Virus record (IMG/VR): IMGVR_UViG_3300032167_000010
Strand: one strand, 5' to 3'
DNA from: a virus
Taxonomy: Duplodnaviria > Heunggongvirae > Uroviricota > Caudoviricetes
Length of the DNA stretch: 64,000 nucleotides
Under the pieces are notes generated by a model. That model ran no database searches, was not told the DNA's origin, and saw nothing but the letters and a program-made list of their open reading frames with translations. Both the position numbers and the translations under genes were made by a program. Numbering within the stretch: the first letter of the stretch is position 1; each line of letters opens with the position of its first letter. Below are positions 30,394 through 48,429 of this stretch, piece after piece.

Positions 30394-30450
30394 AGAGCCT
30401 ATACTTATTTCTAACGTAAATTTTGGGAATTTAAAAGTGGCAGTTAGGCC
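30394..30450 (+). ncRNA. Bulged-helix ncRNA family, copy 1 (57 nt)
   Basis: AGAGCCTA-T-ACT-TATTTCT ... AGT-TAGGCC. Confidence 0.7.
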
Positions 30451-30547: not shown

Positions 30548-32530
30548 ATGACTAATATTAAAAACATTCTTATTTCTCGTCGCATGCTTTTAGCTGATGG
30601 TTTTTCAGTAAGTAATTCTAAAATTGAAAATGCATACCTTAATGCTTTTTTACTTTCAAATTTTGGTATTGTTGTAAATAAGCCGGAACTTTTAACTAAA
30701 GAAATGGTTAAAGACATATCAGATGTTTATAAACTTAATGTTCCTAAATCTTATTTTGCAAATCCACAGGATACTAAGTTTTATACTGCTGAAGAACTTT
30801 TAATAGAACAATGTGTTTCATATTTCCTTGCTTACGGTGCGGAAGAATCACATGTTCACGTTTTTGATAAAAAACTTCCTGATTATCCTGTAGGAAACGA
30901 AATTAAGCTCCGCGAGTTTAAAATCTTAAATCCGGAAGAAGCGATTATAGAACTTGTTGCAATCACAAAAGCTTATGCTGAATATAAACGTCCTTGGAGT
31001 TTAGATGAACAAAATGAATTTTTAGCTCTTTACTATAATGGACAAGGTTATTATGACTTAAATACTATGCCACTTCTTTGCGGAGATAATGCTGTCTTTA
31101 TGTTAGATAAAGATGTAAACTTTGCACAGTTTTTATTTAAGAAAGATGTTGTGAAACTTTCTGTTGCAAAAGTAGGTGAATGTAAAGACCTCGTACTTGA
31201 TTCTGATACTAAAAAGCTTATTAAAGCAATTATTCCACTTGTTAAGGATTGTCCTATGTCTAAGAAACAAGCTAAGTTCTTTAATAAACTTGTTCAAATT
31301 ACTGGTGCAAAGGCAAAGAAAGTAGATAATAAACAATCACCTAATAAACTTGCCATTGAAAAAATTAAAGCAGGTGATATTATTGGTGCAGCTGACATTT
31401 TTGCTAAGAATGGTTCTCTTCTTGAGCGTAATCTTAAGTTTCTTCTTTCACGTGCAAATCCTATCGAAGCAGCAGTAATTCTTAGTATGCTCTCAAATAA
31501 AAATCCTACAGTGCTTTATCAACTTATATCTACTATTAATGCGGATAATGAAGAAGCTCGTACATTCTCTTTCTTTGCTAAAAATAAGGTTAAAACTCAC
31601 GCAGAGACTGAGTACGAAGCTCGTTGGAGAAAGTCTCGTTTGAATGACGCTACTAAGAAACTTGTCCATGATATTTGCTTCGAAAAAATTGCGGAACATT
31701 ATAAAGCCTCAGAAAAACTTGGTAAGGTATATATTGATTCTAAGTTCTATCGTGTAGCAATGCCAGTTAATACTTCTGCATCGGGTAAGGGTATAGACGT
31801 TCCTACGACTGGCACAAGACTTCCTATTACTGGTACTAAGATTCGTTCTTTTGTACACTGGGAGAATGCTTTCGATATTGACTCTTCTGTAATTCTTGAA
31901 AAAGAAGATGGTAGATTAGATTCTATAAACTATAGTAGTTATTATTCTCGTAATTATCAAGGTGTAGCTCGTTTTTCTGGAGATATTACAGGTTCTAAAG
32001 GTACTGAATACTTTGATTTAGATTTAGAATCATTAAAAAATCAAGGTATTAAAAGAGTGATATTTACTTTCCATGGTTTTTGTTCAACTCTTAATGAAGG
32101 TGAAATTTACTGTGGTTATCAAAACAAAGAGGACTTCAATACTAAAGCTTGGGACCCTAAAAATATTGAGCTTAAGATTCATGTTAAAGGTGATAAACGC
32201 GCTTATATAGCTTTTGCCGTGGACCTTGAAACTATGGAAATTGTAGTTCTTAATTTAATGCGTGACGACGACTCTCGTGTTGTTTCTTCTAAAGATTTTG
32301 AAGCTATTAAAGCTTTTATAGACCCTGCAAAACTTGAACTTAATATGGGTTTAATTGCTGAATGGCGTGGTGAAGTTGTAGAAACTCCTGAAGAAGCCGA
32401 CGTTGTTTTTGCTGATGACTATATTTCTAATGTTGAAAATCTTCCAGTTTCAGAAGATGGTTCAGCTAGAGCGCAGACTGTAATTCGTTCGTTTGATGTT
32501 GAGAAGCTTAACGCAATCGCAAATGTTTAA
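30548..32530 (+). CDS. Helical-domain + C-terminal TerD-like domain protein (candidate RNA-binding partner)
   Basis: 660 aa; FVHW..DIDSS..FSGDITG..GTEYFDLD resembles the TerD fold; recalled similarity to the MXAN_6230/SCO0854-like family is unverified. Confidence 0.55.
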   Translation: MTNIKNILISRRMLLADGFSVSNSKIENAYLNAFLLSNFGIVVNKPELLTKEMVKDISDVYKLNVPKSYFANPQDTKFYTAEELLIEQCVSYFLAYGAEESHVHVFDKKLPDYPVGNEIKLREFKILNPEEAIIELVAITKAYAEYKRPWSLDEQNEFLALYYNGQGYYDLNTMPLLCGDNAVFMLDKDVNFAQFLFKKDVVKLSVAKVGECKDLVLDSDTKKLIKAIIPLVKDCPMSKKQAKFFNKLVQITGAKAKKVDNKQSPNKLAIEKIKAGDIIGAADIFAKNGSLLERNLKFLLSRANPIEAAVILSMLSNKNPTVLYQLISTINADNEEARTFSFFAKNKVKTHAETEYEARWRKSRLNDATKKLVHDICFEKIAEHYKASEKLGKVYIDSKFYRVAMPVNTSASGKGIDVPTTGTRLPITGTKIRSFVHWENAFDIDSSVILEKEDGRLDSINYSSYYSRNYQGVARFSGDITGSKGTEYFDLDLESLKNQGIKRVIFTFHGFCSTLNEGEIYCGYQNKEDFNTKAWDPKNIELKIHVKGDKRAYIAFAVDLETMEIVVLNLMRDDDSRVVSSKDFEAIKAFIDPAKLELNMGLIAEWRGEVVETPEEADVVFADDYISNVENLPVSEDGSARAQTVIRSFDVEKLNAIANV

Positions 32531-32608
32531 AAAAAATTAATAAATTATTAAATTATTAATAAAAAATATTTGCTAAATTTTATAGAATAATATTGTATAA
32601 TATAACAT

Positions 32609-32722
32609 AGAGCCAATGCTTATTTCTTTAGCCTTTTAAGCCGTGTGTCGTAGGTTCGAATCCTACCGTCAGCCTTCGGGTGGCGTAGCTCAGCGGTAGA
32701 GCAACGTAAATATAGCTTGGCC
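32609..32722 (+). ncRNA. Bulged-helix ncRNA copy 2 carrying a circularly permuted tRNA-Lys(UUU)-like domain (YrlA-like)
   Basis: Order is anticodon loop CTTTTAA, T arm, acceptor 3' strand, TTCG loop, acceptor 5' strand, D arm; closed by GCCAA/TTGGC. Confidence 0.85.
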
Positions 32723-32728: not shown

Positions 32729-32816
32729 CGGGGTGTGCTGAAACTGGCGAGACAGGGTGGACTTAAAATCCACTACATTAGAAACGTTGGTGGTTCGAAT
32801 CCACTCACCCCGACCA
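32729..32816 (+). tRNA. trnL: tRNA-Leu(TAA)
   Basis: Cloverleaf, GTGGA-CTTAAAA-TCCAC, long variable arm, CCA. Confidence 0.92.
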
Positions 32817-32823
32817 GTAATTT

Positions 32824-32899
32824 GGGCCTCTAGTTCAGCGGTTAGAGCCCCGGTCTCATAAACCGGTAGTCCACAGTTCGAATCTGTGGAGGCCCACCA
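32824..32899 (+). tRNA. tRNA-CAT (probably Ile2, possibly Met)
   Basis: CCGGT-CTCATAA-ACCGG, CCA. Confidence 0.88.
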
Positions 32900-33446
32900 G
32901 TAAATAAACAACTAAATAGGTGCTTTATTGCGGATAGACATATCTATGGTAACTTTTGATGAGTTGATGATTGTGTATTTTAAGAGTTCGAGAACAATGA
33001 TAAAGTTGAATGGTTTTTGAAAACAGCCTATTTTAGTCAATTAAATATCCCGTGCCTTCTCACGTCTATTAAGTTAGAATGACATGTGCCAGAGCTAACC
33101 TAGTCGGGGACACTAAAAGTGGAAGTCCTATACCCGTGGTAAGTCGCCTCTAATCAATCCGTGGAAATTAGAAACCGTAAGAAGTTAGAAAAGGGCTAGT
33201 CATAAAGCTGAATCTGGTGGCTAGATAAAAGGATATTTAATTTGTATAAATTCGTCTCGTAGTTCGTCGAGTTTAAATAACCGAACGTGTGCAATATATA
33301 CAGAGTCAATTGACCGAGTAGTGAAGCACGCACCTCTACCAATGAGGCGGTCGTACAACATAGCACAATCCAATGAGAAAAGGACAGAGGCTCTTAACTG
33401 TAGCCAGAAGATGTGAGAGTTGCTTCCTCACCCGCTAAAATTATTT

Positions 33447-33534
33447 GGAGAGATGTCAGAGTGGCCTAATGTGCACGCTTGGAAAGCGTGTGTACTGAAA
33501 GGTACCACAGGTTCGAATCCTGTTCTCTCCGCCA
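33447..33534 (+). tRNA. trnS: tRNA-Ser(GGA)
   Basis: CACGC-TTGGAAA-GCGTG, long variable arm, GCCA. Confidence 0.93.
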
Positions 33535-34084
33535 GTGCGTTTTTGTTATATTTTTCGTAATAAAAAAAATAAAATATAGCTTAAATTGATAGGAACTAAT
33601 GCACGAATATCTAATGGAGTCATTTTAGGAATGATGTTGATATAGTTAGGGTAAGCATTAAAGTACTTCTTATTGTGTAGGTTAACATGCAGATAAGCGT
33701 TATGGCCCTACCGATACGTTAAATCGGGGAACAGTGTTTGTGGGGATACTATATTTACTGAGATTAATGATCTTGTCTAGAGTTCAAGTATTTTAAGAGC
33801 GCGACACTTAAGCTCTTCTGTACTCAGCAGTTTATAAAAGAACGAACAAAAGAGTAACAACAACTTAATAAGTAAGTATAAATCAATTGAGGTGTCCATC
33901 AAGCAGAGGCTTGTTTGGAGGACAGAGCTACCCGCGACTTGGATGAAATAGAGTCTGAAATCAAGCGGCCAAGAAGGTCTTGAAAAAGATATGGTAGCAG
34001 GAAGTGGCGAGGCGATAGCAGGTCAACTCAAGAGTACCTAGGTTATTAGTAAATTGAGGAAGCTGAAAATTAATTGTTGATTAT

Positions 34085-34162
34085 GCGGGATTGATGTTTT
34101 AATGGCTAGCATTTCTGCCTTCCAAGCAGATCGTGAGGGTTCGAGTCCCTTATCCCGTTCCA
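34085..34162 (+). tRNA. trnG: tRNA-Gly(TCC)
   Basis: TCTGC-CTTCCAA-GCAGA, TCCA. Confidence 0.92.
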
Positions 34163-34510
34163 GTATATCTTGGATAAAATTCTAGATACCAAGAAACTTC
34201 GAATATATTGAATAAGAAGGCTGAGTCCGTCGGTACAAGGCAATATGAGAGAATGATCAACGGACTACTCTCAAAATTATTTTTTTGGGCTGGTCATAAG
34301 ATCTAGGTCCACCAATACGGGAGTTTTCCTGTTATTTAGTTGTTAGCTTAGTAAGTCGTAGGCCGGACAAATACGTGTAGCCCCCGGTTATTGCGAGAGT
34401 CGAACAGCGCAACGGGGTGGTTGGCAACAACTAGTCGAAAGATGTAGATAAGTTCATTACACGTGTTTATTTATAATACTCGATTCTCTCAAAGGAAACT
34501 AGAGAGACGT

Positions 34511-34586
<76 letters not shown>

Positions 34587-34874
34587 ATTTGGGTAGAAGG
34601 TAGTCGCTTGAAATACAGTTGAGCCTCTAAAATACGCTCTTATATACGGCGAGGAATAGTATATAATATAATGTAAAGTTAAATAAGGTGCCACGAAGCT
34701 TTATAAATAATCTTTGCTGTGTTAATAAACGGGAAACTGTTTTACTCGAGGTGAGCTTATAAAAGGGTCAGTAGCTGTGGTAAATGGAACGAGATAAACA
34801 GCCTTATATTTATGTAAAATATTTCTAAGGAGGTAATCATTATGCTATAACTAAATTTATAAGGAGTTATCGTA

Positions 34875-35234
34875 ATGAAACCAAAACACAAATATTTTAG
34901 AAATCAGCGCTATAAGAACTCGCTTGAAAGAAAGTATAACAACGGATATAACGAAAGTTATCCAAGTAATATTGTTTTCTTAACAAAAGAACAAGACCCA
35001 CGTGCTAAAAGGGAAGCCGCTTGGTGGTGGAGCTATGACTTTAAGAAGAAAACACATTACAAATATTATGCTAGACCTGAAGTTCCTTATACTGTTATGG
35101 AAGAACACTATAAACCCGATAGAACTAAGCATTTTTTCAAGAAACATTCAAATAGAGCTGTAAGACGTACAAAAGACGCTTATAACGGCGGAAGCTGTAA
35201 AAAAGTTTTTGATTTATGGTGGACATTGTTTTAA
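34875..35234 (+). CDS. Basic hypothetical protein within the tRNA island
   Basis: 119 aa, AAGGAG RBS, followed by a hairpin. Confidence 0.7.
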   Translation: MKPKHKYFRNQRYKNSLERKYNNGYNESYPSNIVFLTKEQDPRAKREAAWWWSYDFKKKTHYKYYARPEVPYTVMEEHYKPDRTKHFFKKHSNRAVRRTKDAYNGGSCKKVFDLWWTLF

Positions 35235-35263
35235 GTCTTGGCTAGTTTTAACTAGCCTTATTT

Positions 35264-35339
35264 AGGGGTGTCGTATAGTTGGTTAGTACACAAGACTTTG
35301 ACTCTTGCAGGGTTAGTTCGAGTCTAGCCGCCCCTGCCA
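35264..35339 (+). tRNA. trnQ: tRNA-Gln(TTG)
   Basis: CAAGA-CTTTGAC-TCTTG, GCCA. Confidence 0.9.
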
Positions 35340-35428
35340 GATGCTGAGTATGACTATCCTTCAACAGAAAACAGTACGTCATTCTATCACAATATGAATG
35401 AAGCACAAACAAAAGAAGGGATTTATAT

Positions 35429-35549
35429 CACGACTTAGTTCATAGGTAAGAGCACCCAAATCCCAGGGAAGAGAGAAGCGTTGAAGCTGATTACTAGCTA
35501 GAATTGGCAGAGCTGAAGAGGAGCATCGTCGTAGGTGCAGTCGTGTCAA
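35429..35549 (+). ncRNA. Free-standing ~120-nt tRNA-like RNA, paralogue of the tRNA-Thr insert
   Basis: CACGACT/AGTCGTG acceptor-like stem, D arm, CCC-AAATCCCA-GGG hairpin, T-like arm. Confidence 0.7.
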
Positions 35550-35618
35550 TTATTAAATTAATAATTTATTAAAAAATTATTAGCTAAATTAATTAGATAA
35601 AGTTAAGGAGTATATAAC

Positions 35619-35714
35619 ATGAAAAAGATTATTTTTGCCAAAACATTAAAAAATAACAATAGTAGTGTTATGCCATTTTATCGTAAAGCCAGAGACCCAG
35701 TATTCCAGTGTTAA
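35619..35714 (+). CDS. Putative 31-aa peptide MKKIIFAKTLKNNNSSVMPFYRKARDPVFQC
   Basis: AAGGAG RBS, downstream of a GCTAAATTA motif. Confidence 0.4.
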   Translation: MKKIIFAKTLKNNNSSVMPFYRKARDPVFQC

Positions 35715-35825
35715 GAATTTTTATAGTAGATAAAGTATCTTAGCGCTTGGGATTATAAAAAATTCTGAGCGCTTTTTATTTTTATTATTAAAATTTACAT
35801 GAGAGTATTGTATAATATATTATAA

Positions 35826-35959
35826 GCGCCTGTAGCTCAGTTGGCAGAGCACGTGACTTGTTTGAGTAGCATAAGTAATGCGATATTATGTGAGTTCAAA
35901 TCTTACCTCAAGCACCATTAATCACGGTGTCCCGAGTTCGAATCTCGGCAGGCGCACCA
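35826..35959 (+). tRNA. trnK: tRNA-Lys(TTT) interrupted at 34/35 by a 58-nt mini-tRNA (35860-35917)
   Basis: Exons of 34 nt and 42 nt give 76 nt with CGTGA-CTT|TTAA-TCACG. Confidence 0.9.
35860..35917 (+). ncRNA. Anticodon-arm-less mini-tRNA nested in tRNA-Lys
   Basis: GTTTGAG/CTCAAGC stem, D arm GCAT-AAGTA-ATGC, T arm GTGAG-TTCAAAT-CTTAC, ACCA. Confidence 0.88.
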
Positions 35960-36209
35960 AAGAGGGCTATTTCCAAGCCCTGCTGGTTTGCTCGGCCGTT
36001 ATTGGTATTTAATGGAAATAAGTATTAATAGATAAAGTACGATAATCTTTATCCCTGGTTATGCAGGTTAATATAGAGGTAAGCGAGTGGTTTCCTGCGC
36101 ATTCCTACATATCAAATTCGGCGAGGAGATGGTTTGGTTTCTACTAACCAAATAACTTAGTAGACTATCTAGAGTAATATTCCGGGGATAGTTAAATAGT
36201 AGAATATAT

Positions 36210-36318
36210 GTGAGAGTAGCCAAGTAGTAAGGCCACCCGACGGGGTTACAAAGTGAGGTGCAAGTCCCACTGAAAGCATAGGGCGTACGGATCGTTGGTG
36301 CAAATCCAACCTCTCACA
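36210..36318 (+). ncRNA. tRNA-like RNA with two T-loop hairpins and no CCA
   Basis: GTGAGAG/CTCTCAC stem, D arm, TGCAAGT and TGCAAAT loops. Confidence 0.6.
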
Positions 36319-36324
36319 ATTTAT

Positions 36325-36399
36325 AGGGGATTGGTGTTAATGGCAGCATAGGGGTCTCCAAAACCTTTGGTTAGAGTTCAAATCTTTAATCCCCTGCCA
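36325..36399 (+). tRNA. trnW: tRNA-Trp(CCA)
   Basis: GGGGT-CTCCAAA-ACCTT, GCCA. Confidence 0.9.
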
Positions 36400-36549
36400 G
36401 GGCAGTTATAATGTGGTGAAGAATGGTCTGCCGAAGCAAAATCCGTAGGGTCATGAGGTATGGATACTCCTCGATTAATATAAGTATGCAAATTGAAAAT
36501 AGGCCTTAAGTAAATAAGTGAAAATATTAATAAAATTATCCATATTTTT

Positions 36550-36625
36550 GCAGGATTAGCTCAGTTGGGAGAGCAATTGTCTTACAAGCAATGGGTCGGC
36601 GGTTCGAGCCCGTCATTCTGTACCA
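36550..36625 (+). tRNA. trnV: tRNA-Val(TAC)
   Basis: ATTGT-CTTACAA-GCAAT, ACCA. Confidence 0.92.
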
Positions 36626-36883
36626 GTTGAGTTCGGATATAGCGAACTTTTGAAATGCTTAAGCATACTAGTAAATACTTAATCAAAGTAAATTTAGTAG
36701 TGGAATGTAATGTGGAAAAAGCTTTGACTCCGATACCATTTCACTCAACACCATTCAGTTCTGGGGTAAGTTAGTTGAACCGGTTATACTAACAACCATA
36801 TGTGCGTAGAATATGGATTTAACCTGACAGGCGGATATTCCTGTAGATGCAGAAAGGCTGCGAACTGAGACCATTTTAATTAC

Positions 36884-37000
36884 ATGTCAGTGGCGGAAAA
36901 ATCCTGCAGACCAAAGACAGTAGGTGGATAGACGTAACCCTGTTAAGGGTGAAGAGTCTTGCAAGCTCTTATAAAGGTTCAAATCCTTTCTGACATACCA
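36884..37000 (+). ncRNA. Atypical type-II tRNA-like RNA with D-loop insertion and 6-nt anticodon loop
   Basis: ATGTCAG/CTGACAT-ACCA, T arm AAAGG-TTCAAAT-CCTTT, ACCC-TGTTAA-GGGT. Confidence 0.7.
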
Positions 37001-37116
37001 AGGGCAAACAGTTATCACTTTCATTAGAGCCCTAGATAAAAGTTCCTGAAAGTGAAAGTTTTTCTTTTTCACAGTAGCTTGGTTTTATGATGACTTAAAA
37101 AACACAAACTATGATT

Positions 37117-37192
37117 CTAGGTATAGCACAATTGGATGTGCATCGCCCTTCTAAGGCGACGGTTGTAGGTTCGAGCCCTGCTACCTAGACCA
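37117..37192 (+). tRNA. trnR: tRNA-Arg(TCT)
   Basis: TCGCC-CTTCTAA-GGCGA, ACCA. Confidence 0.93.
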
Positions 37193-37199
37193 AAAGTAT

Positions 37200-37277
37200 G
37201 CCTCGGTAGCTCAGTTCGGTAAGAGCACTAGACTGAAAATCTAGACGTCGGCGGTTCAAATCCACCCTGAGGCACCA
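37200..37277 (+). tRNA. trnF: tRNA-Phe(GAA)
   Basis: CTAGA-CTGAAAA-TCTAG, ACCA. Confidence 0.93.
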
Positions 37278-37411
37278 AAAGCGGAAAAAGTACAATTCTG
37301 CTCAGCAACGCGTAGTATAGGTAGAGGTAGAATTACGCCAAAACGAGGTCATATGCCGTGGAGGAAACCCTGACACCGACGAGACTGGTTCATCAGGAGC
37401 GTTGTGAATAT

Positions 37412-37484
37412 GCCAGATGTGCTAGGAACACAAGGAGGTCTCATACACCACCTGTGCTTGGAGCGTAACCAAGATCTGGTACCA
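37412..37484 (+). ncRNA. Degenerate CAT-anticodon tRNA-like RNA
   Basis: GCCAGAT/ATCTGGT-ACCA, CTCATAC loop, non-canonical T loop AGCGTAA. Confidence 0.6.
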
Positions 37485-37570
37485 ATAGTAAATATAGGTT
37501 CGAGCCCTGTATTGGGGAGCCTTAAGTGGAACAACTCCCCGATTAGTTTAATTGGACTAAAACTTACTAT
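37485..37570 (+). ncRNA. Second circularly permuted tRNA-like RNA, open at the anticodon end
   Basis: ATAGTAA/TTACTAT closing stem, T arm, ATTGGGGAG/CTCCCCGAT stem, D arm. Confidence 0.75.
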
Positions 37571-38012
37571 GCACGAAACCGCGGGAAGTGTGGTAACCGG
37601 CGGTCTAAAAATGAAGGATCACCAAACCTTATACATGACAACGCTGAAATCGCCTCTATGATGTATAAGTGAGTCCAATAGCCTTGACAGTAAGACTGGG
37701 GTTGAATGTTACCTTACATATTACGATATGGTAAGATACTAAAAGCTGTCTGAAATACCTCTGGCAAGAGATTTAGTAGTGACTCTATAACATAAACTAC
37801 TTGGTAGCGTATGTGCGGAAGGCAAGGCAGTGTTTTTACATTGTTCCTTGGATACTATAAGAAATTATAGTAGTACAGGCTATGTTGAATAGTCTTAAAT
37901 AAAAACCCGTGAATGTCAGTAAATGTCCCGAAAGTATCAACAGAGAAGCTGACTAATCTCGTTCTAGGTGTAGGATAGGGACGAGCAGGTTTACGGGGCT
38001 CCTGCTCAATAT

Positions 38013-38087
38013 GGGGAATGTAGTGTAAAGGTAGCACCTCAGTTTGTGGCACTGATAGTTAGAGTTCGATCCTCTACGTTCCCACCA
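38013..38087 (+). tRNA. trnH: tRNA-His(GTG) with encoded G-1 and A73
   Basis: TCAGT-TTGTGGC-ACTGA; 3' end CGTTCCC-A-CCA. Confidence 0.9.
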
Positions 38088-38104
38088 GTTAAGTTATATT
38101 ATAT

Positions 38105-38190
38105 GGGTAGGTAGCGAAGAGGTTAAACGCTGCGGGCTGTAAACCCGCCCCTGTTTAGGTTCGCTGGTTCGAATCCAGCCCTGCCCACCA
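38105..38190 (+). tRNA. trnY: tRNA-Tyr(GTA)
   Basis: GCGGG-CTGTAAA-CCCGC, ACCA. Confidence 0.93.
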
Positions 38191-38387
38191 ATACGACTAG
38201 ACTCATAAGTCGTTCAATAGAGTACAAAGCCTTGGTTGCGGGAGTCGCAATTACACAAGGATGCAGAGACTCGCCCTTATAAAGGGAATTAAATAAATTG
38301 AGTATGGGCATGATTAGGGACTTTCCACCCATGAAGATAAAGCGGAAAGGATAACGTTATGACGCCTGGGAATAGACCAGGATGCAT

Positions 38388-38464
38388 ACGCTCTTAGCTC
38401 AATTGGATAGAGCTTTGCGCTACGGACGCAACGGTTAGGGGTTCGAGTCCCTTAGAGCGTGCCA
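38388..38464 (+). tRNA. trnR: tRNA-Arg(ACG)
   Basis: TTGCG-CTACGGA-CGCAA, GCCA. Confidence 0.93.
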
Positions 38465-38672
38465 AGCCTTCTTACAGAGATAACCATCACGTTGGCACTG
38501 CTGAAGAATAAAACCAGGAGATTTTGGCGCTCCTGTTTGGATGTTGAAACTTCCTATTGTTAATCTGTTTGAGACTCAAAACAGAGCGTTTACTCTGGTA
38601 ATCGTTGGAAAACCTATGAGGTAGTATAACTGACTCAGTGTTATATGACTGCAGGGAATAGTTCTGCACTAT

Positions 38673-38750
38673 CGATGTGTAGTTCAGTTGGTTTAGAGCA
38701 CCTGTCTGATACACAGGAAGTCGGTGGTTCGAACCCACCCACATCGACCA
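38673..38750 (+). tRNA. trnI: tRNA-Ile(GAT)
   Basis: CCTGT-CTGATAC-ACAGG, ACCA. Confidence 0.88.
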
Positions 38751-38762
38751 AAAATTTAATAT

Positions 38763-38838
38763 CTGGGTGTGGCGCAGTTGGTAGCGCGCTTGAATGGGGT
38801 TCAAGAGGTCGGGAGTTCAAGTCTCTTCACTCAGACCA
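38763..38838 (+). tRNA. trnP: tRNA-Pro(GGG)
   Basis: CTTGA-ATGGGGT-TCAAG, ACCA. Confidence 0.9.
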
Positions 38839-38937
38839 TAAAAATATTATACTTTATTAAATTTGTTTTTAAATTATATGCTAAATTAATAGTACCCTGA
38901 TTAAAAATTAAATAATTTATTGTATAATATAATATCT

Positions 38938-39031
38938 GGAGGGGTACTCAAGTTGGTGAAGAGGACGCACTGCTAACGCGTTAGGGCGGTGATGAGCCGT
39001 CGCGAGAGTTCGAGTCTCTCCCCCTCCGCCA
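38938..39031 (+). tRNA. trnS: tRNA-Ser(GCT)
   Basis: ACGCA-CTGCTAA-CGCGT, long variable arm, GCCA. Confidence 0.92.
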
Positions 39032-39066
39032 ATTACTATATATTAAAATTTATTTTGGGGCTATTA

Positions 39067-39378
39067 ATGTATACTATAATTTATAAAGGTAAGTCAATCT
39101 CTTACAACGAAAATAATATTCATATAAAAAATTCATATAAAGTTAAAAATAGCGCCGAAATGGAAGAAGCTTTAAGATATGTTGTAGCCAGAGCTGCTAA
39201 ACGCGGAATTACCTATAAACGCAGTATGGCTAGTTGGATTAGAGAATGGAAAACACATAATTTTTTATGTGGTATGAAATACAAAGTAGCTCAAACTTCT
39301 TCAGTAGACCTTAATGAGAATGAGAGTTTATTTAGACGTTTAAGTTATTTTATATTAGCTCTATTTTATAGAGGCTAA
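39067..39378 (+). CDS. Hypothetical protein (start moved to the ATG downstream of tRNA-Ser)
   Basis: MYTIIYKG..., 103 aa; the longer ORF call overlaps the tRNA. Confidence 0.6.
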   Translation: MYTIIYKGKSISYNENNIHIKNSYKVKNSAEMEEALRYVVARAAKRGITYKRSMASWIREWKTHNFLCGMKYKVAQTSSVDLNENESLFRRLSYFILALFYRG

Positions 39379-39385
39379 ACCTTAC

Positions 39386-39462
39386 GGGCCCATATATCAG
39401 CTGGCTAGATGGTTTCCCTTGCAAGGAAAAGGTCGTCGGTTCGAATCCGACTGGGTCCACCA
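39386..39462 (+). tRNA. trnA: tRNA-Ala(TGC)
   Basis: G3:U70 pair, TTTCC-CTTGCAA-GGAAA, ACCA. Confidence 0.93.
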
Positions 39463-39587
39463 CTAGTAGATAAGTAACAAATATCAGCACTACAACAAGC
39501 CTACGTAGGTTAGTATAGCGTATTAATCTATGTATGAAATTAAATGCTAGATGTGTAGCGAGTGCAAGACTTTATTGTACGTTTTAT

Positions 39588-39670
39588 GGGGGTGTGGTGA
39601 AATTGGCAGACACGCCAGACTTAGGATCTGGTGCGTAAGCGTGCAGGTTCAACTCCTGTCACCCCCACCA
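39588..39670 (+). tRNA. trnL: tRNA-Leu(TAG)
   Basis: CCAGA-CTTAGGA-TCTGG, ACCA. Confidence 0.93.
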
Positions 39671-39679
39671 AAATAATAT

Positions 39680-39754
39680 GGTCCTTTAGTATATCGGTTA
39701 GTATAGCGGACTGTCACTTCGCAGAGAGGAGTTCAACTCTCCTAAGGACCGCCA
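39680..39754 (+). tRNA. trnD: tRNA-Asp(GTC)
   Basis: GCGGA-CTGTCAC-TTCGC, GCCA. Confidence 0.92.
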
Positions 39755-39918
39755 ATAAACACAATATAACGAAGAATATTGAGGTTAATGTATTCTAAGG
39801 TAACTGATAGGGGTAACCCACCAAAGAGCTAATAGGATTTTTCTAATGCTGAAGTTACATAGGTATTAGACTTTGTTGACCTAACTCTACCTAAGGTCAT
39901 TAGTATTGTGTTATATTT

Positions 39919-39993
39919 TGGGGAGTCGCCAAGCGGTAAGGCCCTGGATTCTGACTCCAGTACTCGTAGGTTCGAATCCTGCTTCCCCAGCCA
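39919..39993 (+). tRNA. trnQ: tRNA-Gln(CTG)
   Basis: CTGGA-TTCTGAC-TCCAG, GCCA. Confidence 0.93.
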
Positions 39994-40054
39994 TAGTATG
40001 AGGTTTCGTGGGAAGTGCCCCGAGTAAAACTAGCAACAAATTACCTCACTTTAT

Positions 40055-40131
40055 GCCCAGTTGGAGAAGAGGCTTAACTCACCACCCTTTCACGGTGGCA
40101 TTCGCGTGTTCGAATCACGTACTGGGTACCA
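40055..40131 (+). tRNA. trnE: tRNA-Glu(TTC)
   Basis: CCACC-CTTTCAC-GGTGG, ACCA. Confidence 0.92.
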
Positions 40132-40208
40132 GGAAGTTGTTGGTTGTATAATACTTTAAACCTTCACGGCTTGACCTACGCCGTACAGTAAGTAGGTTAT
40201 AAACAGAT

Positions 40209-40283
40209 TGGTAGGTAGCCTAGCGGATAGGCAGCAGACTGTTAATCTGCCTTAGGTGGGTTCAACTCCCTCCCTACCAGCCA
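40209..40283 (+). tRNA. trnN: tRNA-Asn(GTT)
   Basis: GCAGA-CTGTTAA-TCTGC, GCCA. Confidence 0.9.
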
Positions 40284-40344
40284 CTAAATTAAAACTTATA
40301 TCTCTAAGACAATAAAATATTTTATATAAAGGAGATTGTGTATT

Positions 40345-40566: not shown

Positions 40567-40580
40567 TCCAATCTCTATAT

Positions 40581-40878: not shown

Positions 40879-40935
40879 AGAGCCTGAACTTATTTCTGAG
40901 GATAAAAATAAATATGGATTTAACTTAGTCAGGCC
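40879..40935 (+). ncRNA. Bulged-helix ncRNA family, copy 3 (57 nt)
   Basis: AGAGCCTG-A-ACT-TATTTCT ... AGT-CAGGCC. Confidence 0.7.
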
Positions 40936-40951
40936 ATTATAAAAATAACTT

Positions 40952-41027
40952 AGAGCTCATACTTATTTCTATTGAAGATACATATACTCCTGGACGTATG
41001 TGCCAGGCACTAAAGATTAGTTGAGCC
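40952..41027 (+). ncRNA. Bulged-helix ncRNA family, copy 4 (76 nt)
   Basis: AGAGCTCA-T-ACT-TATTTCT ... AGT-TGAGCC. Confidence 0.7.
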
Positions 41028-44874: not shown

Positions 44875-44919
44875 ATATTGTATTATATAATATAAAAATA
44901 ATTATTGAGGTTAAATAAT

Positions 44920-46341
44920 ATGAGTTATTATGCTATTGTAACTGCTTTAAAAAACGTGCGTAAGCACCCTAATGCAGACAGACTTCAACTTGCCTCAGTA
45001 TTTGGTAATACTATTTGTGTTGACTTAACTTATACTGATGGCCAACTTGGTGTATATTTTCCAACAGGTGGACAGCTTTCAGTAGCTTTTGCTGAGGCAA
45101 ATAACTTGCTTCGTAAAAAAGATGCCGAAGGAAATAATATCGGTGGATATATGGACCCAGATAAAAGAAATGTAGCGGCTATTAAACTAAGAGGTGAGAA
45201 GTCTGATGGGCTTTTCCTTCCTTTGAATAGTCTCGAAACTTTTGGTGATATTTCTACTTTGAAGGCTGGCGACCGAATCGACGTGTTTAATGGTACAGAG
45301 ATTTGCACCAAGTACATACCTAAAATTAATATTAGACGTGGCAGTTTTTCTGAAGGAAATCGTACTAGAAAAACTAAGGCGCCTATTGCTCCTTTATTTG
45401 CAGAACACGCAGACACTGAACAGCTTGCCTATAACTTGGGTATGTTTAAGGTCGGTGATGAATTAGAGTTTACTCTAAAAATGCACGGGACTTCTCAACG
45501 TACCGGTCATCTTAAAGTTTTGACTGGTTATAAGAGAACTTTTTTTGATAAGCTTTTTAAAAGACCTGGCACACCTATTTATGATTGGGGCTATGTTTCT
45601 GGTACCCGTCGTGTAGTTCTTGATACTTTTGATGGTGGTTTCTACGGCTCAAATGAATTCAGAGAACAACATCATAATGCTTTTGTTGGAAAGCTTTGGA
45701 AGGGTGAAACTGTTTATTACGAAGTAGTTGGTTTTACTCATACTGGTGCGCCTATTATGGGTAATGGTAATAACGAAAAACTTGGTAAAGACTTTGTAAA
45801 GCAGTATGGTAAAGAAACTGTATTTAGCTACGGCTGTAATCCAACTGGTGAGTGCATTATGTGTGGTGAAGATGAACTTAGCGCTTTTAAAGTTCCAGTT
45901 GATGTTCCAATATCAGATACTTATGTTTACCGTATGACAATGACTAATGAAGATGGTGAAATTGTTGAGTATACGCCAGACTTTATAAGGTATCGTTGTG
46001 AACAAATGGGCGTTAAATGTGTTCCTGTTTTCGGTAAAGCTACAATTAGTGAAGATAGACTACATTTTGTAACACAAGACGGTTATGACCATGACTATTT
46101 AATTGGTGACGGTACTATTGGTGATATGGTAGTAAAGTGTGCTGAAGACTTTTATGCTGGACCTGACCCTGTGGGTAAGACACACACTAGAGAAGGTGTT
46201 GTTGTTCGTATTACTAATAGACCTAAATTCGCAGCAGTAAAACATAAAAACTTTGAATTTAAGGTCTTAGAAGGTATCATTTCTGAAAAGCTTACAGAAT
46301 CAACCACAGAAATAGCAGAAGATGTTCTTGCGGAAATGTAA
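44920..46341 (+). CDS. ATP-dependent RNA ligase (DRB0094/Rnl2-like) with N-terminal OB-fold tRNA-binding-like domain
   Basis: N-terminal HPNADRL..IKLRGEKSDG; nucleotidyltransferase motifs TLKMHGTS, YYEVVG, REGVVVR, KHKNFEF. Confidence 0.85.
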   Translation: MSYYAIVTALKNVRKHPNADRLQLASVFGNTICVDLTYTDGQLGVYFPTGGQLSVAFAEANNLLRKKDAEGNNIGGYMDPDKRNVAAIKLRGEKSDGLFLPLNSLETFGDISTLKAGDRIDVFNGTEICTKYIPKINIRRGSFSEGNRTRKTKAPIAPLFAEHADTEQLAYNLGMFKVGDELEFTLKMHGTSQRTGHLKVLTGYKRTFFDKLFKRPGTPIYDWGYVSGTRRVVLDTFDGGFYGSNEFREQHHNAFVGKLWKGETVYYEVVGFTHTGAPIMGNGNNEKLGKDFVKQYGKETVFSYGCNPTGECIMCGEDELSAFKVPVDVPISDTYVYRMTMTNEDGEIVEYTPDFIRYRCEQMGVKCVPVFGKATISEDRLHFVTQDGYDHDYLIGDGTIGDMVVKCAEDFYAGPDPVGKTHTREGVVVRITNRPKFAAVKHKNFEFKVLEGIISEKLTESTTEIAEDVLAEM

Positions 46342-46353
46342 TAAGAGGTTTAT

Positions 46354-46605
46354 ATGAGCAAAAATACTAATAGTACAAATGGTGGAATTGGAGTAAGTAT
46401 GGTGTTATTTTTAATTTTTTTAGTTTTGAAACTTGTTGGGGTTATTAATTGGTCATGGTGGTGGGTGACTTCTCCACTTTGGATTACTACTAGTATCATA
46501 AGTTTAGTAATCGTAGTAGCATATATTTATTGTTGTATTGATGATGCTAAAGAAAGGCGCAGAATCAACAAATCAAGACGAGGTAATAAGAATGAAAAAG
46601 ACTAA
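46354..46605 (+). CDS. Small membrane protein
   Basis: LVLKLVGVINWSWWWVTSPLWI; two transmembrane segments. Confidence 0.7.
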   Translation: MSKNTNSTNGGIGVSMVLFLIFLVLKLVGVINWSWWWVTSPLWITTSIISLVIVVAYIYCCIDDAKERRRINKSRRGNKNEKD

Positions 46606-47401
46606 AGATTCACTTGGCGATCGCATGAAGGAGTTTTATGAGAATCGTTCTAAGATGTACCTCACAAGACGAACTCCTGTAATTATTCGTTTAGATGGTA
46701 AGGCTTTTCACAGCTTTACAAAAGGTTTTAAGAGACCTTACGATGAAATCTTCCATGAAGCAATGAATAACACAATGAAGTATCTTTGTGCTAATATTCA
46801 GGGTTGTAAACTTGGTTATACGCAGTCTGACGAGATTACACTTCTCTTGACTGACTATACTACTCTTACAACTGATGCTTGGTTTGGTTATGGCGTTCAG
46901 AAAATGTGCTCTATTGCAGCTTCGATGGCGACTTTAATGTTTAATAAGTATTTTAGAACTGCCGTTAATCGCCACTTTGAGGGCGCTATTGGCATGGATG
47001 ACTACCACAAGACCATGTGCCTAGCTCGTGATAAAGGCGCAATGTTTGATGCCCGTTGTTTTAATATTCCAAAAGAAGAAGTAACTAACTGCTTTATTTG
47101 GAGGCAGCAAGACGCAACTCGAAATGCTATTCAAATGTTAGGTCAAACTCATTTTTCTCATAGAGAATTACAAGGTAAAAGTTGCAATGATATTCAAGAC
47201 ATGTTGATGTTGCAAAAAGGTATTAATTTTAACGATATGCCTATTGAATTCAAGCGTGGTGTTTGTTGCATTAAAAAAGAAGTTGAATGCACTGATAGAC
47301 TTATAGGTTATAAGCATGATTGGGTAATAGATACAGAGATTCCAATTTTTACTCAGGATAGAAATTATATTGAACAATATTTACTAGAAAAAGAAATCTA
47401 A
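46592..47401 (+). CDS. thg1: tRNA(His) guanylyltransferase Thg1-like protein (3'-5' polymerase)
   Basis: GDRMKEFYE, IRLDGKAFH, YTQSDEI, FDARCF and WRQQDATRN motifs. Confidence 0.9.
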   Translation: MKKTKDSLGDRMKEFYENRSKMYLTRRTPVIIRLDGKAFHSFTKGFKRPYDEIFHEAMNNTMKYLCANIQGCKLGYTQSDEITLLLTDYTTLTTDAWFGYGVQKMCSIAASMATLMFNKYFRTAVNRHFEGAIGMDDYHKTMCLARDKGAMFDARCFNIPKEEVTNCFIWRQQDATRNAIQMLGQTHFSHRELQGKSCNDIQDMLMLQKGINFNDMPIEFKRGVCCIKKEVECTDRLIGYKHDWVIDTEIPIFTQDRNYIEQYLLEKEI

Positions 47402-47420
47402 AATTAAGAGGTGTTTAAAA

Positions 47421-47702
47421 ATGTTTATTATTAGTGGTGGAAGAGGAACTGGTAAAACTAAACTTTTACTTCAACATGCAGCTGATAAAGGCGCTACTAT
47501 TGCGTGTTCAAATCCTATAGAAATGAGAGAACGTGCTCATAGCTACGGAATTGTTGGACTTAATATTATTTCTTATGAAGATGTTGCTATTTTTAAAACG
47601 GCTTATCCTGATAAGGTAGACTCTTTGTATATTCATGATATAAATAAATTTCTTGAAACTAATTTTTCGTGGATATCTGGCTACTCACTAAGCTTTAGTT
47701 GA
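47421..47702 (+). CDS. Short P-loop protein
   Basis: Walker A-like GGRGTGKT at the N-terminus. Confidence 0.6.
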   Translation: MFIISGGRGTGKTKLLLQHAADKGATIACSNPIEMRERAHSYGIVGLNIISYEDVAIFKTAYPDKVDSLYIHDINKFLETNFSWISGYSLSFS

Positions 47703-47712
47703 GGTTAATTTA

Positions 47713-48429
47713 ATGGTATATATTACAGGAGATATTCACGGTAATCCATCAGAAATTATTTACATGGCTCAGCGCTGGGGAATAACTAAAGATGATATTA
47801 TAGTGCTTCTTGGTGACGTTGGAGCGAACTATTATCTTAATAAAAAAGATAATAGAACAAAAGAAGCTTTAAGTAAATATATTGATGCTACCATTCTTTG
47901 TATCCATGGTAATCACGAAGCGCGTCCTGCGATGATTGGGGGATATGAGCTTATGGATTGGAATGGTGGACAAGTATATGTTCAACCAGAGTATCCCAAC
48001 CTGCTCTTCGCTCATGATGGATCCATCTTTAATTTAGAGGGCTTGAGTTGTCTAGTGCTTGGCGGAGCGTACAGTGTAGATAAGTATTATCGTCTTAAAG
48101 AAGGCTATGCCTGGTTTTTTGATGAACAACCATGTAAAGGTATTAAACTTTACGCAGAGCGCCAAATTGCGGAAGCGGGCAATAAAGTAGATGTTGTATT
48201 TTCACACACCTGTCCATTTAAATATGAGCCTATTGAGGTATTTTTACCAGGCATTGATCAATCTACTGTTGATGACAGCACTGAAAAATGGCTTGATGAA
48301 ATCGAAAATAAACTTGATTATAAAGCCTGGTACTGTGGACATTGGCATATAAACAAACGTATAGATAAAATGCACTTTTTATTTAATACGGTTGAAATAT
48401 TAGATGATATTAAAGATAAAGGAAATTAA
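47713..48429 (+). CDS. Calcineurin-like metallophosphoesterase
   Basis: GDIHG, GDVG, GNHE, FSHT and GHWH motifs. Confidence 0.88.
   Translation: MVYITGDIHGNPSEIIYMAQRWGITKDDIIVLLGDVGANYYLNKKDNRTKEALSKYIDATILCIHGNHEARPAMIGGYELMDWNGGQVYVQPEYPNLLFAHDGSIFNLEGLSCLVLGGAYSVDKYYRLKEGYAWFFDEQPCKGIKLYAERQIAEAGNKVDVVFSHTCPFKYEPIEVFLPGIDQSTVDDSTEKWLDEIENKLDYKAWYCGHWHINKRIDKMHFLFNTVEILDDIKDKGN

What the first reader, a model, noticed from the sequence alone, without database searches (positions are those of the whole stretch)
32609..32722. Circularly permuted tRNA-Lys(UUU) mimic with an intact anticodon loop
Seen: GC-CTTTTAA-GCCGT, T arm GTAGG-TTCGAAT-CCTAC, CGTCA(G)CC-TTCG-GGTGGCG, D arm, then A-ACG. 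The 5' anticodon strand ACG|GC is split between the two ends, the acceptor is capped by a UUCG tetraloop (no CCA, so it cannot be charged), and the break is clamped by the bulged helix. Established: YrlA RNAs are permuted tRNA mimics in which the Ro stem replaces the anticodon arm. Here the Lys loop is retained. Inference: a decoy or sensor for Lys-specific anticodon nucleases or modification enzymes; less likely a permuted pre-tRNA.
Basis: partly seen in the sequence, partly recalled or inferred. Interest (0 to 1): 0.87.

Follow-up and report, generated by a model that had tools for sequence, protein, structure and literature searches.

The report
Closed tRNA-Lys mimic on phage RNA handle
This large phage makes a small RNA that is a back-to-front, capped copy of lysine tRNA with a working-looking anticodon loop; it sits on a conserved stem that always travels with one uncharacterised protein gene, so it looks like an undescribed cousin of the Ro60/Y-RNA particle that displays tRNA anticodon arms.

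Summary
Window 32609-32722 is a circularly permuted tRNA-Lys(UUU): put back in normal order it gives a clean ARAGORN cloverleaf, and 13-14 homologues support every helix by covariation.

It is not a stray gene. Its leader and trailer form a conserved "handle": AGAGC-nnn-n-RC, then CUUAUUUCU, then GY-nnn-GGCC. The handle recurs four times in the window and 7-10 times in related ~225-kb phages.

A handle unit also lies directly upstream of the neighbouring 660-aa gene (helical N-terminal region plus TerD domain) and of its homologues down to 27% identity, including in bacteria.

In orthologues the acceptor is a closed hairpin of 6-9 bp capped by UUCG, GNRA or long inserts. C32, U33, U36, A37 and A38 never change, but positions 34-35 switch between UUU, GUU, GCU, UGU and UCU. 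Some orthologues keep only a D arm plus a Lys anticodon arm.

Best reading: a Y-RNA-like, probably uncharged tRNA mimic whose anticodon arm is bait or tether for an anticodon-loop-reading factor. "Lys-specific" is not supported, and the decoy function is untested.

Rfam YrlA matches below threshold, and no Ro60 gene was found. This scan has met the same handle/TerD pairing before on other genomes; the new point here is the retained, fast-changing anticodon.

The parts
32572..32601 (+). Promoter region: phage motif GCTAAATT (32572-32579) and extended -10 TGTATAAT (32594-32601). The predicted start is about A32609.
   Evidence: Read from the sequence. The same layout precedes the orthologous units in L001-L006. 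The consensus scan did not list it because TTGCTA lies 20 nt from the -10.
32609..32627 (+). Handle, 5' side: A-GA, helix strand GCCAA (32612-32616), bulged U32617, GC (32618-32619), and the invariant single-stranded CUUAUUUCU (32619-32627).
   Evidence: Exact motif found. It is invariant in 13 homologues. The helix covaries.
32628..32630 (+). Variable linker UUA between the handle motif and the anticodon arm.
   Evidence: Variable columns in the alignment.
32631..32644 (+). Anticodon arm: GC (positions 30-31), loop CUUUUAA with anticodon UUU at 32635-32637, and 3' strand GCCGU (39-43).
   Evidence: C32, U33, U36, A37 and A38 are invariant; positions 34 and 35 vary.
32645..32666 (+). Variable loop GUGUC and T arm GUAGG-UUCGAAU-CCUAC.
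32667..32685 (+). Closed acceptor hairpin: CGUCAGCC, then the UUCG tetraloop (32675-32678), then GGUGGCG.
   Evidence: All 7 pairs covary. Caps and stem lengths differ among orthologues.
32686..32706 (+). U8 A9, D arm GCUC-AGCGGUA-GAGC, A26, and ACG (positions 27-29 of the anticodon stem).
32707..32722 (+). Linker UAAAUAU and handle 3' side A-GC-UUGGC-C. tRNA-Leu starts 6 nt later at 32729.
30548..32530 (+). 660-aa protein gene: helical N-terminal region plus C-terminal TerD domain. It is the candidate partner of the handle and is flanked by handle units on both sides.
   Evidence: Synteny evidence.
30394..30450 (+). Sibling handle RNA with a simple AU-rich hairpin as cargo (GGGA loop), in the 5' leader of the 660-aa gene.
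   Evidence: Orthologues occur in all relatives and in Clostridium sp. CAG:288.
40879..40935 (+). Sibling handle RNA near the end of the tRNA array (helix GCCUG-A-AC / GU-CAGGC).
40952..41027 (+). Sibling handle RNA with a CCUGG...CCAGG hairpin as cargo (helix GCUCA-U-AC / GU-UGAGC).
35826..35959 (+). The window's real tRNA-Lys(UUU) gene, split between U34 and U35 by a 58-nt tRNA-like insert. It shows that the mimic is not the only Lys gene.
Evidence: Sequence read.
44905..48429 (+). RNA-repair-type genes downstream of the array: RNA ligase (44905-46341), Thg1-like protein (46538-47401) and metallophosphoesterase (47713-48429).

Best explanation
The element is one member of a family of small phage and bacterial RNAs built as a constant handle plus a variable cargo.

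The handle is the paired 5' and 3' ends: 5 bp, a one-base bulge, 2-3 bp, then the single-stranded CUUAUUUCU. It most likely binds the 660-aa helical/TerD-domain protein encoded just upstream, in the way Y RNAs bind Ro60.

The cargo here is a complete tRNA-Lys(UUU) look-alike whose acceptor end is closed by a UUCG tetraloop. It probably folds into the tRNA L-shape but is not used as an amino-acid carrier.

The unit is transcribed first in the tRNA operon from an extended -10 promoter. RNase P cutting at the next tRNA probably frees it, and its paired ends should keep it stable.

Because the anticodon loop is kept intact and positions 34-35 change quickly between relatives, the cargo most likely works as bait or tether for a factor that reads the anticodon loop of ANN-decoding tRNAs. 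That factor could be an anticodon nuclease or a loop-modifying enzyme, held at or kept away from the protein partner.

Shown: the structure, the family, and the gene linkage. Inferred: protein binding, stability, and the bait role.
For: Structure:
- ARAGORN cloverleaf after un-permuting.
- Covariation in all helices.

Handle family:
- Four copies in the window.
- 7-10 copies per related complete genome, all on one strand around the tRNA array.
- 51 of 127 leader contexts have a perfectly complementary trailer, against 10.9 in controls, with at least 10 compensated helix variants.

Protein linkage:
- A unit lies upstream of the 660-aa gene in the window and in all six phage relatives.
- The only exact copy in the 1.6-Mb Clostridium sp. 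CAG:288 genome sits 30 nt upstream of the 42%-identical homologue.
- Units, several with tRNA-like cargo, precede homologues of 27-41% identity in bacterial and mobile-element contexts; one is beside RtcB.

Not a tRNA gene:
- Acceptor hairpins are 6-9 bp, capped by UUCG, GCGA, 5-15-nt loops or a 33-nt insert. None of the 13-14 units with this split-stem layout has CCA, although every normal tRNA in the array encodes it.
- A GCU (Ser) anticodon sits on a short-variable-arm body.
- Orthologues with the same handle keep only a D arm plus a Lys anticodon arm.
- Normal tRNA-Asn and tRNA-Lys coexist with the mimics in relatives, and a separate Lys gene exists in the window.

Anticodon loop is functional:
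- C32, U33, A37 and A38 are invariant in the leader-defined set.
- U36 is invariant in 13-14 units although it was left free in the search pattern.
- Positions 34 and 35 have entropies of 1.0 and 1.46 bits.

Known analogue:
- YrlA is the only Rfam family with E <= 0.01.

Context:
- RNA ligase, Thg1-like and phosphoesterase genes lie downstream.
Against: - No RNA or binding data exist. The handle-protein interaction rests only on conserved gene order, and a purely cis-regulatory role for the copy in the gene's leader would give the same synteny.
- The N-terminal domain's resemblance to Ro60 is weak: Z 6.4, rmsd 5.2 A, 215 residues.
- The window's acceptor stem is 7 bp, the length that lets RNase P open M. 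smegmatis YrlA. So the cap may not stay closed.
- The homologues are related to each other, so 13-14 units are fewer independent observations than they look.
- Sibling units have plain hairpin cargos, so an anticodon-centred role cannot hold for the whole family.
Confidence: 0.6

Rival explanations
1. Opened two-piece mimic. RNase P cuts 5' of G32679, the UUCG tail is trimmed and CCA is added, as in M. smegmatis YrlA. The result is a nicked RNA held together by the handle, which could even be charged by LysRS.
For: M. smegmatis YrlA has a 7-bp closed acceptor and is cut by RNase P and CCA-tailed in vivo (PMC4201824). The window's stem is 7 bp. Several relatives also have 7 bp. Sibling units whose anticodon is UGG (tRNA-Pro-like, with the handle joined inside the anticodon loop) carry an encoded ACCA in the cap and a C1-G72 pair.
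Against: The stem has a G.G mismatch or bulge and a C before UUCG, and no CCA. Orthologues have 6-, 8- and 9-bp stems, stable UUCG or GNRA tetraloops, or a degenerate stem with a 33-nt insert; these are not RNase P substrates by the 7-bp rule. D arm + anticodon-arm orthologues have no acceptor at all.
Confidence: 0.12
2. True permuted pre-tRNA. Leader and trailer are cut off, the 29/30 junction is sealed by the phage RNA ligase into a circle, and RNase P plus 3' trimming open the acceptor to give a working tRNA-Lys.
For: The cloverleaf is perfect after un-permuting. An RNA ligase, a Thg1-like enzyme and a phosphoesterase are encoded 12 kb downstream. The other Lys gene of the window itself needs unusual splicing. 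Circular intermediates are how permuted tRNAs mature in red algae (general knowledge).
Against: There is no bulge-helix-bulge motif, and no known bacterial enzyme cuts such a junction. The same handle carries non-tRNA hairpins and partial tRNAs. The handle occurs once in a bacterial genome, beside the protein gene and not in a tRNA context. Acceptor length and caps vary. GCU sits on a class I body. Relatives keep a normal tRNA with the same anticodon.
Confidence: 0.07
3. Cis-acting transcript element. The handle is a leader signal (processing stem, antitermination or stability element) for the tRNA operon and for the 660-aa gene, and the tRNA-like insert is a passenger.
For: The unit is the first thing transcribed in the array. 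Another copy lies in the 5' leader of the 660-aa gene in every genome examined. Leader-trailer stems flanking structured RNAs are how rRNA operons are processed (general knowledge).
Against: Two window copies lie near the end of the array, not at a transcript start. A passenger would not keep covarying tRNA arms, or an invariant loop frame with a changing anticodon. CUUAUUUCU matches known boxA sequences only loosely (own reading).
Confidence: 0.1
4. Rearrangement scar: a decayed remnant of two tandem tRNA genes with no function.
For: Tandem tRNA genes that lose their outer halves give this order. blastn hits to tRNA-Arg/tRNA-Val junctions in cyanophages show that such juxtapositions occur.
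Against: The two halves fit each other, not neighbouring genes. Conservation and compensatory change across 13-14 homologues, plus the shared handle, exclude neutral decay.
Confidence: 0.02

Closest known systems
YrlA-type bacterial and phage Y RNAs bound by Ro60/Rsr (Rfam RF02553; Chen et al. 2014, PMC4201824)
   Same: The 5' and 3' ends pair in a terminal stem. The interior is a permuted tRNA-like module in the order T arm, closed acceptor-like hairpin, D arm. A simpler sibling RNA (like YrlB) and the protein gene lie next to it. RNA-repair ligase genes are nearby: RtcB beside one homologue and an Rnl-type ligase in the window. YrlA is the only Rfam family with E <= 0.01.
   Different: The score is 35.7-38.6 bits against a gathering score of 69. 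The Ro60-contact motif GNCGAAN0-1G is absent; instead there is a covarying bulged helix plus CUUAUUUCU. No TROVE gene was found in five related complete genomes. The neighbouring protein is a helical region plus TerD, not TROVE plus vWA. The anticodon loop is retained, with a changing anticodon.
M. smegmatis YrlA (RNase P-cleaved, CCA-tailed Y RNA; PMC4201824)
   Same: A closed 7-bp acceptor-like stem on a tRNA-like module.
   Different: Whether the window's RNA is cut is unknown. Family members with 6-, 8- and 9-bp or interrupted stems argue that cutting is not the general rule.
Circularly permuted tRNA genes of Cyanidioschyzon merolae, other algae and Thermofilum (general knowledge; cited in PMC3400036 and PMC4238349, found)
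   Same: The 3' half is encoded upstream of the 5' half, and leader and trailer pair with each other.
   Different: Those use a bulge-helix-bulge motif, the splicing endonuclease and a circular intermediate, and they yield the cell's working tRNA. Here there is no such motif. The acceptor is capped by stable tetraloops, and the same leader/trailer carries non-tRNA cargos.
Phage T5 tRNA-Lys/Thr/Asn variants that neutralise the PARIS nuclease AriB (PMC12409363)
   Same: These are phage-encoded RNAs with Lys(UUU), Thr(UGU) and Asn(GUU) anticodon arms, the same anticodons that alternate on this mimic. The phage context is a large tRNA array plus repair genes.
   Different: The T5 RNAs are ordinary chargeable tRNAs that replace cleaved host tRNAs. 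The element here is a closed mimic on a protein handle. It has G39 where E. coli AriB needs U39. Both the host and its nucleases are unknown.

Membership tests
YrlA / Y RNA (Rfam RF02553) | Terminal stem enclosing a permuted tRNA-like module (T arm, closed acceptor-like hairpin, D arm) | tested here: met
YrlA / Y RNA (Rfam RF02553) | Covariance-model score at or above Rfam's gathering score (69 bits) | tested here: not met
   35.7 bits, E 1.4e-6, model 1-114. Bacterial relatives score 38.6 bits.
YrlA / Y RNA (Rfam RF02553) | Ro60-contact motif GNCGAAN0-1G in the 5' strand of the stem (PMC4201824) | tested here: not met
   The 5' strand is GAGCCAAUGC. The corresponding positions vary and covary with the 3' strand in other units.
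YrlA / Y RNA (Rfam RF02553) | Encoded beside a Ro60 (TROVE-domain) gene | tested here: not met
   No Pfam TROVE hit on the neighbouring 660-aa protein. No TROVE match in five related genomes that are 95-100% complete. Fold-level likeness of the N-terminal domain to phage Ro60 is inconclusive: 9l5y_B, Z 6.4, rmsd 5.2 A, 215 residues.
YrlA / Y RNA (Rfam RF02553) | Anticodon arm replaced by the protein-binding stem | tested here: not met
   A 7-nt anticodon loop closed by 2-3 bp is kept and conserved.
Circularly permuted tRNA genes (algal/archaeal type) | 3' half upstream of 5' half, giving a canonical cloverleaf when rejoined | tested here: met
Circularly permuted tRNA genes (algal/archaeal type) | Bulge-helix-bulge (3-4-3) motif at the leader-trailer junction | tested here: not met
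   The junction helix is 5 bp, a 1-nt bulge, then 2-3 bp, followed by long single-stranded linkers.
Circularly permuted tRNA genes (algal/archaeal type) | Acceptor opened to a 7-bp stem with discriminator and CCA; mature tRNA produced | not testable with these tools
   This needs RNA data. Comparative hints are against it: stems of 6-9 bp, UUCG/GNRA caps, a 33-nt insert.
Circularly permuted tRNA genes (algal/archaeal type) | Serves as the genome's source of that tRNA | tested here: not met
   A separate tRNA-Lys(UUU) gene lies at 35826-35959. Relatives carry normal tRNA-Asn and tRNA-Lys beside their mimics.
Handle RNA / TerD-domain protein pair (undescribed; met before by this scan) | Handle consensus: paired ends with a one-base bulge, followed by (C)UUA(U/C)UU(U/C) | tested here: met
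Handle RNA / TerD-domain protein pair (undescribed; met before by this scan) | At least one unit directly upstream of a homologue of the ~660-aa helical + TerD protein | tested here: met
   Seen in the window and 6 phage relatives, and in 9 more distant homologues: L279, L382, L385, L386, L387, L388, L389, L511, L512.
Handle RNA / TerD-domain protein pair (undescribed; met before by this scan) | Physical binding of handle and protein | not testable with these tools
   Inference from synteny only.

The most novel reading that the evidence does not exclude
The handle/TerD-protein particle displays interchangeable anticodon arms of ANN-decoding tRNAs (Lys, Asn, Thr, Ser-AGY, Arg-AGR, Ile) as bait in an arms race with host anticodon-loop nucleases of the PrrC or AriB kind. 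The bait either soaks the nuclease up or reports its activity to the RNA-repair genes. The rapid switching at positions 34-35 would track the nuclease specificity of each host.
Probability: 0.22. Interest if true: 0.9.

Novelty: new variant of a known kind. Interest (0 to 1): 0.77.

Why it matters
Y RNAs and Ro60 are the only well-known case where a small RNA uses a tRNA look-alike to direct a protein, and what that look-alike binds is still unknown. Here the same design appears on a different stem and with a different protein family, one with about 1,050 cluster representatives in phages and bacteria.

The look-alike also keeps the one part YrlA lacks, the anticodon loop. The loop frame is fixed and the anticodon changes between close relatives. 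That points to an anticodon-reading partner, which gives a concrete handle on the function.

The result connects to the current picture of tRNA-targeting immunity (PrrC, PARIS) and phage countermeasures (tRNA arrays, ligases). The anticodons seen include the three known AriB targets.

It also warns annotators that 'permuted tRNA genes' in phages and bacteria may be protein-handle RNAs rather than tRNA genes.

Tried and rejected
- **Close DNA relatives.** blastn and tblastn against 50,697 deposited phage genomes gave no close relative. The only hits were generic tRNA matches and a weak Rhodococcus phage protein match.
- **Whole genome.** None is held for the window.
- **Single-sequence folding.** It did not give the cloverleaf and was not better than shuffles.
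- **'The array lacks Lys, so the permuted gene must supply it.'** I held this idea at first.
- **Hairpin loops of the simple sibling units as anticodon loops (UUUGGGA and the like).** Across orthologues these are better read as GNRA-type loops (GGGA, GGAA, GCAA, GAAA, GAGA). I do not count them as anticodon mimics.
- **An RNA partner complementary to CUUAUUUCU.** AGAAAUAAG-like sites in the window are at chance level.
- **boxA-like antitermination reading of the motif.** The resemblance is only loose and was not pursued.
- **Integron attC reading of GTTAGGC-type ends.** Rejected, because the ends covary freely as RNA helices.
- **Genome-collection pattern scan.** Hits were mostly chance singletons. 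Only one survived the trailer test.
- **Ro60.** There was no Pfam TROVE hit and no PDB sequence hit. Foldseek on the N-terminal domain gave nothing at E <= 0.001. VIA-align gave phage Ro60 as the only whole-domain match, but at Z 6.4, within the noise range for helical proteins.
- **Literature.** Full-text searches found no paper on phage permuted tRNAs of this kind, or on TerD proteins with tRNA-like RNAs.
- **Complex prediction.** Not used, because it cannot take RNA.

Full report
**1. The observation**

The window comes from a large AT-rich phage. It has giant ORFs, BspA-type LRR proteins, a CHAP endolysin and a 25-gene tRNA array at 32729-41277. The element sits 79 nt after a 660-aa ORF and 6 nt before the first tRNA of the array.

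Joining 32679-32706 to 32631-32674 gives a sequence that ARAGORN calls tRNA-Lys(ttt). It has a canonical D arm, a 5-bp anticodon stem, the loop CUUUUAA, a 5-nt variable loop, a T arm and a 7-bp acceptor with one G.G mismatch. In genomic order neither ARAGORN nor the Rfam tRNA model sees it. The gene is therefore truly permuted: the break lies between positions 29 and 30, and the acceptor is closed by C(UUCG)G.

**2. The leader and trailer are a repeated, covarying handle**

Relatives were fetched through the upstream 660-aa ORF (76-78% identity, ~220-233-kb contigs). Their downstream regions carry the same 5' sequence, AGAGC-nnnnn-CUUAUUUCU, and a matching 3' sequence, GY-nnn-GGCC, around quite different interiors.

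- The window has four such units: 30394-30450, 32609-32722, 40879-40935 and 40952-41027.
- Four related genomes, each 95-100% complete, have four to ten matches each at up to one mismatch, nearly all on one strand, before and after the tRNA array.
- Of 127 distinct leader contexts, 51 have a perfectly complementary trailer within 25-200 nt. Using another unit's leader finds 10.9 +/- 2.9.
- At least ten helix variants are fully compensated, for example GCCAA/UUGGC, GCCUA/UAGGC, GCUCA/UGAGC, GCCUG/CAGGC, GCUUG/CAAGC and GCCGA/UCGGC. The inner RC/GY pair switches GC/GC to AC/GU.

So the handle is 5 bp, a one-base bulge, 2-3 bp, and then an invariant single-stranded CUUAUUUCU.

**3. The tRNA-like cargo is conserved as structure**

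Eight units with the same layout were aligned. RNAalifold independently recovered the handle helix, the 2-bp closure of the anticodon loop, the T arm, the acceptor hairpin and the D arm.

Counting the full structure gave 94.3% paired cells, 18 of 29 pairs with changes on both sides, 0 of 500 shuffles as good, and 27-43% pairing when partners were slid by one to three columns. All seven acceptor pairs covary.

**4. Why it is a mimic and not a tRNA gene**

- Among 13-14 distinct homologues, the acceptor hairpin is 6, 7, 8 or 9 bp. Its cap is UUCG, GCGA on 9 bp, a nested UUCG hairpin, loops of 3-15 nt, or a 33-nt insert on a stem with U.U mismatches.
- None of these encodes CCA, whereas the normal tRNAs of the array do.
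- One lineage has anticodon GCU (Ser) on a body with a 5-nt variable loop. SerRS would not recognise that body (established knowledge of Ser identity).
- Orthologous units with the identical handle helix (GCCAA-U-GC) carry only a D-arm-like hairpin plus a Lys anticodon arm. Others carry a D arm plus an anticodon arm nearly identical to E. coli tRNA-Lys positions 10-43. Those can never be tRNAs.
- Relatives keep a normal tRNA-Asn(GUU) or tRNA-Lys(UUU) beside the mimic with the same anticodon.
- The window has its own tRNA-Lys(UUU) at 35826-35959, split between U34 and U35 by a 58-nt tRNA-like insert (lead).

One caveat. M. smegmatis YrlA has a closed 7-bp acceptor, yet it is cut by RNase P and given CCA in vivo (PMC4201824). 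The window's 7-bp stem could therefore be opened. I keep that as a rival.

**5. The anticodon loop**

In the set found by the leader alone, C32, U33, A37 and A38 are invariant while the triplet varies. A second search left all three anticodon positions free. It returned 14 distinct units with GUU (4), GCU (3), UUU (3), UGU (2) and UCU (2).

U36 never changes. Positions 34 and 35 have entropies of 1.0 and 1.46 bits, the highest among unpaired positions outside the cap.

The changes occur on near-identical bodies:
- window UUU versus L004/L255 GUU
- L132 GCU versus L147 GUU versus L474 UGU
- L134 UCU versus L459 GUU
- L258 UUU versus L495 GCU

More distant bacterial members show the same loop class: AUGAUAA (GAU) in L382, CUUCUAA in L512 and CUUUUAA in L511. 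One phage unit has ACA instead.

The loop itself is under constraint and belongs to the U36-A37-A38 class of ANN-decoding tRNAs. Those are the tRNAs that carry t6A37, by established knowledge. The units are related to each other, so these counts overstate independence.

**6. The protein partner**

A handle unit lies in the 5' leader of the 660-aa gene in the window and in all relatives.

In the 1.6-Mb genome of Clostridium sp. CAG:288, the only exact handle match lies 30 nt upstream of a 664-aa homologue (42% identity, E 1e-174), among ordinary chromosomal genes. All weaker pattern hits in that genome are at control level.

The protein family is large: 1,053 representatives at E <= 0.001. Homologues of 27-41% identity in bacterial, conjugative-element and phage contexts are all preceded by one to three units.
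- Several carry permuted tRNA-like cargo: L382, L388 (UUCG-capped) and L389 (CUUG-capped).
- In the most distant ones the motif drifts to UUACUU(C/U).
- One homologue lies directly after an RtcB ligase gene.

The AlphaFold model is confident (pLDDT 93.8). Residues ~425-590 are a TerD beta-sandwich (2qz7_B, Z 13.7, rmsd 2.3 A, 145 residues).

The helical N-terminal 400 residues have no clear solved relative. Folded alone, the only match that spans the whole domain is Ro60 of Thermus phage phiLo (9l5y_B, Z 6.4, rmsd 5.2 A, 215 residues). That Z lies in the range helical proteins reach by chance. AlphaFold DB neighbours are named TerD family, DUF4132 and ZorC EH domain.

That the protein binds the handle is an inference from gene order.

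**7. Comparison with what is known**

The only Rfam family matching with E <= 0.01 is YrlA. The score is 35.7 bits over the whole model, against a gathering score of 69. Two bacterial relatives score 38.6. The shared features are the topology and the tRNA-like T and D arms.

The differences are:
- the Ro60-contact motif GNCGAAN0-1G is absent
- no TROVE gene occurs in five related complete genomes
- the partner protein is different
- the anticodon loop is kept

It also differs from algal and archaeal permuted tRNA genes (no bulge-helix-bulge, capped acceptor) and from the chargeable T5 tRNAs that defeat PARIS.

The anticodons on the mimic include the three E. coli AriB targets, Lys(UUU), Thr(UGU) and Asn(GUU) (PMC12409363). 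However, the mimic has G39 where E. coli AriB needs U39, and the host is unknown. This is a lead, not evidence.

Full-text searches found no description of this RNA or of a TerD-protein/tRNA-like RNA pair.

**8. Earlier notes of this scan**

The same window's reader had flagged the four-copy family, the bracketed protein, the split Lys gene and the repair genes. Follow-ups on other genomes reached the same 'Y-RNA-like handle with TerD protein' reading.

I reached the handle, the protein linkage and the YrlA relation from my own searches before reading the notes from other genomes, and I re-tested them here. What this report adds is the retained anticodon loop with its fixed frame, invariant U36 and fast-changing positions 34-35, together with the D arm + anticodon-arm orthologues.

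**9. Verdict**

Most likely this is a stable RNA made of a handle and a tRNA mimic. It partners the TerD-domain protein, and its anticodon arm serves as bait or tether for an anticodon-loop-reading factor (confidence 0.6 for the architecture and partnership, about 0.2-0.3 for the nuclease-bait role).

Noticed in passing
window 35826-35959: The window's only ordinary tRNA-Lys(UUU) gene is split between U34 and U35 by a 58-nt insert that ends in CCA and looks like a miniature tRNA. ARAGORN miscalls part of it as tRNA-Leu(caa). Its 3' anticodon strand reads UAAUCA, the same as the E. coli AriB site.
   Followed up: partly
window 41128-41322: A second interrupted tRNA follows tRNA-Met (Rfam tRNA hit 41162-41277, 32.4 bits).
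   Followed up: no
L511:1-1500: In a metagenomic contig, a 29%-identical homologue of the 660-aa protein lies directly after an RtcB RNA ligase gene. The 400-nt spacer holds handle units, a T arm and a CUUUUAA anticodon-like hairpin. This echoes the rsr-yrlBA-rtcBA operon of Salmonella.
   Followed up: partly
L279:6202-6672 and L388:4784-5995: MORN-repeat proteins, one fused to a TIR domain, neighbour the bacterial homologues of the 660-aa gene in two unrelated genomes.
   Followed up: no
window 30548-31747 (N-terminal 400 aa): The only solved structure that aligns across the whole helical domain is a phage Ro60 (9l5y_B), but at Z 6.4. AlphaFold DB neighbours include proteins named ZorC EH domain and DUF4132.
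   Followed up: partly
window 12533-13765: A 410-aa ORF has a weak match to the N-terminal domain of the major tropism determinant Mtd (E 8.7e-4). It lies among several BspA-type LRR proteins, which hints at a diversity-generating retroelement target.
   Followed up: no
window 32572-32579, and the same place in L001-L006: The motif GCTAAATT precedes the extended -10 box of the handle-RNA promoter in the window and in all relatives.
   Followed up: no
L001:3865-3977, L002:12355-12468, L004:12249-12365: Sibling permuted units have a tRNA-Pro-like body (C1-G72, A73, UGG, G37) and an encoded ACCA in the acceptor cap. In these the handle is inserted inside the anticodon loop rather than in the stem.
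   Followed up: partly
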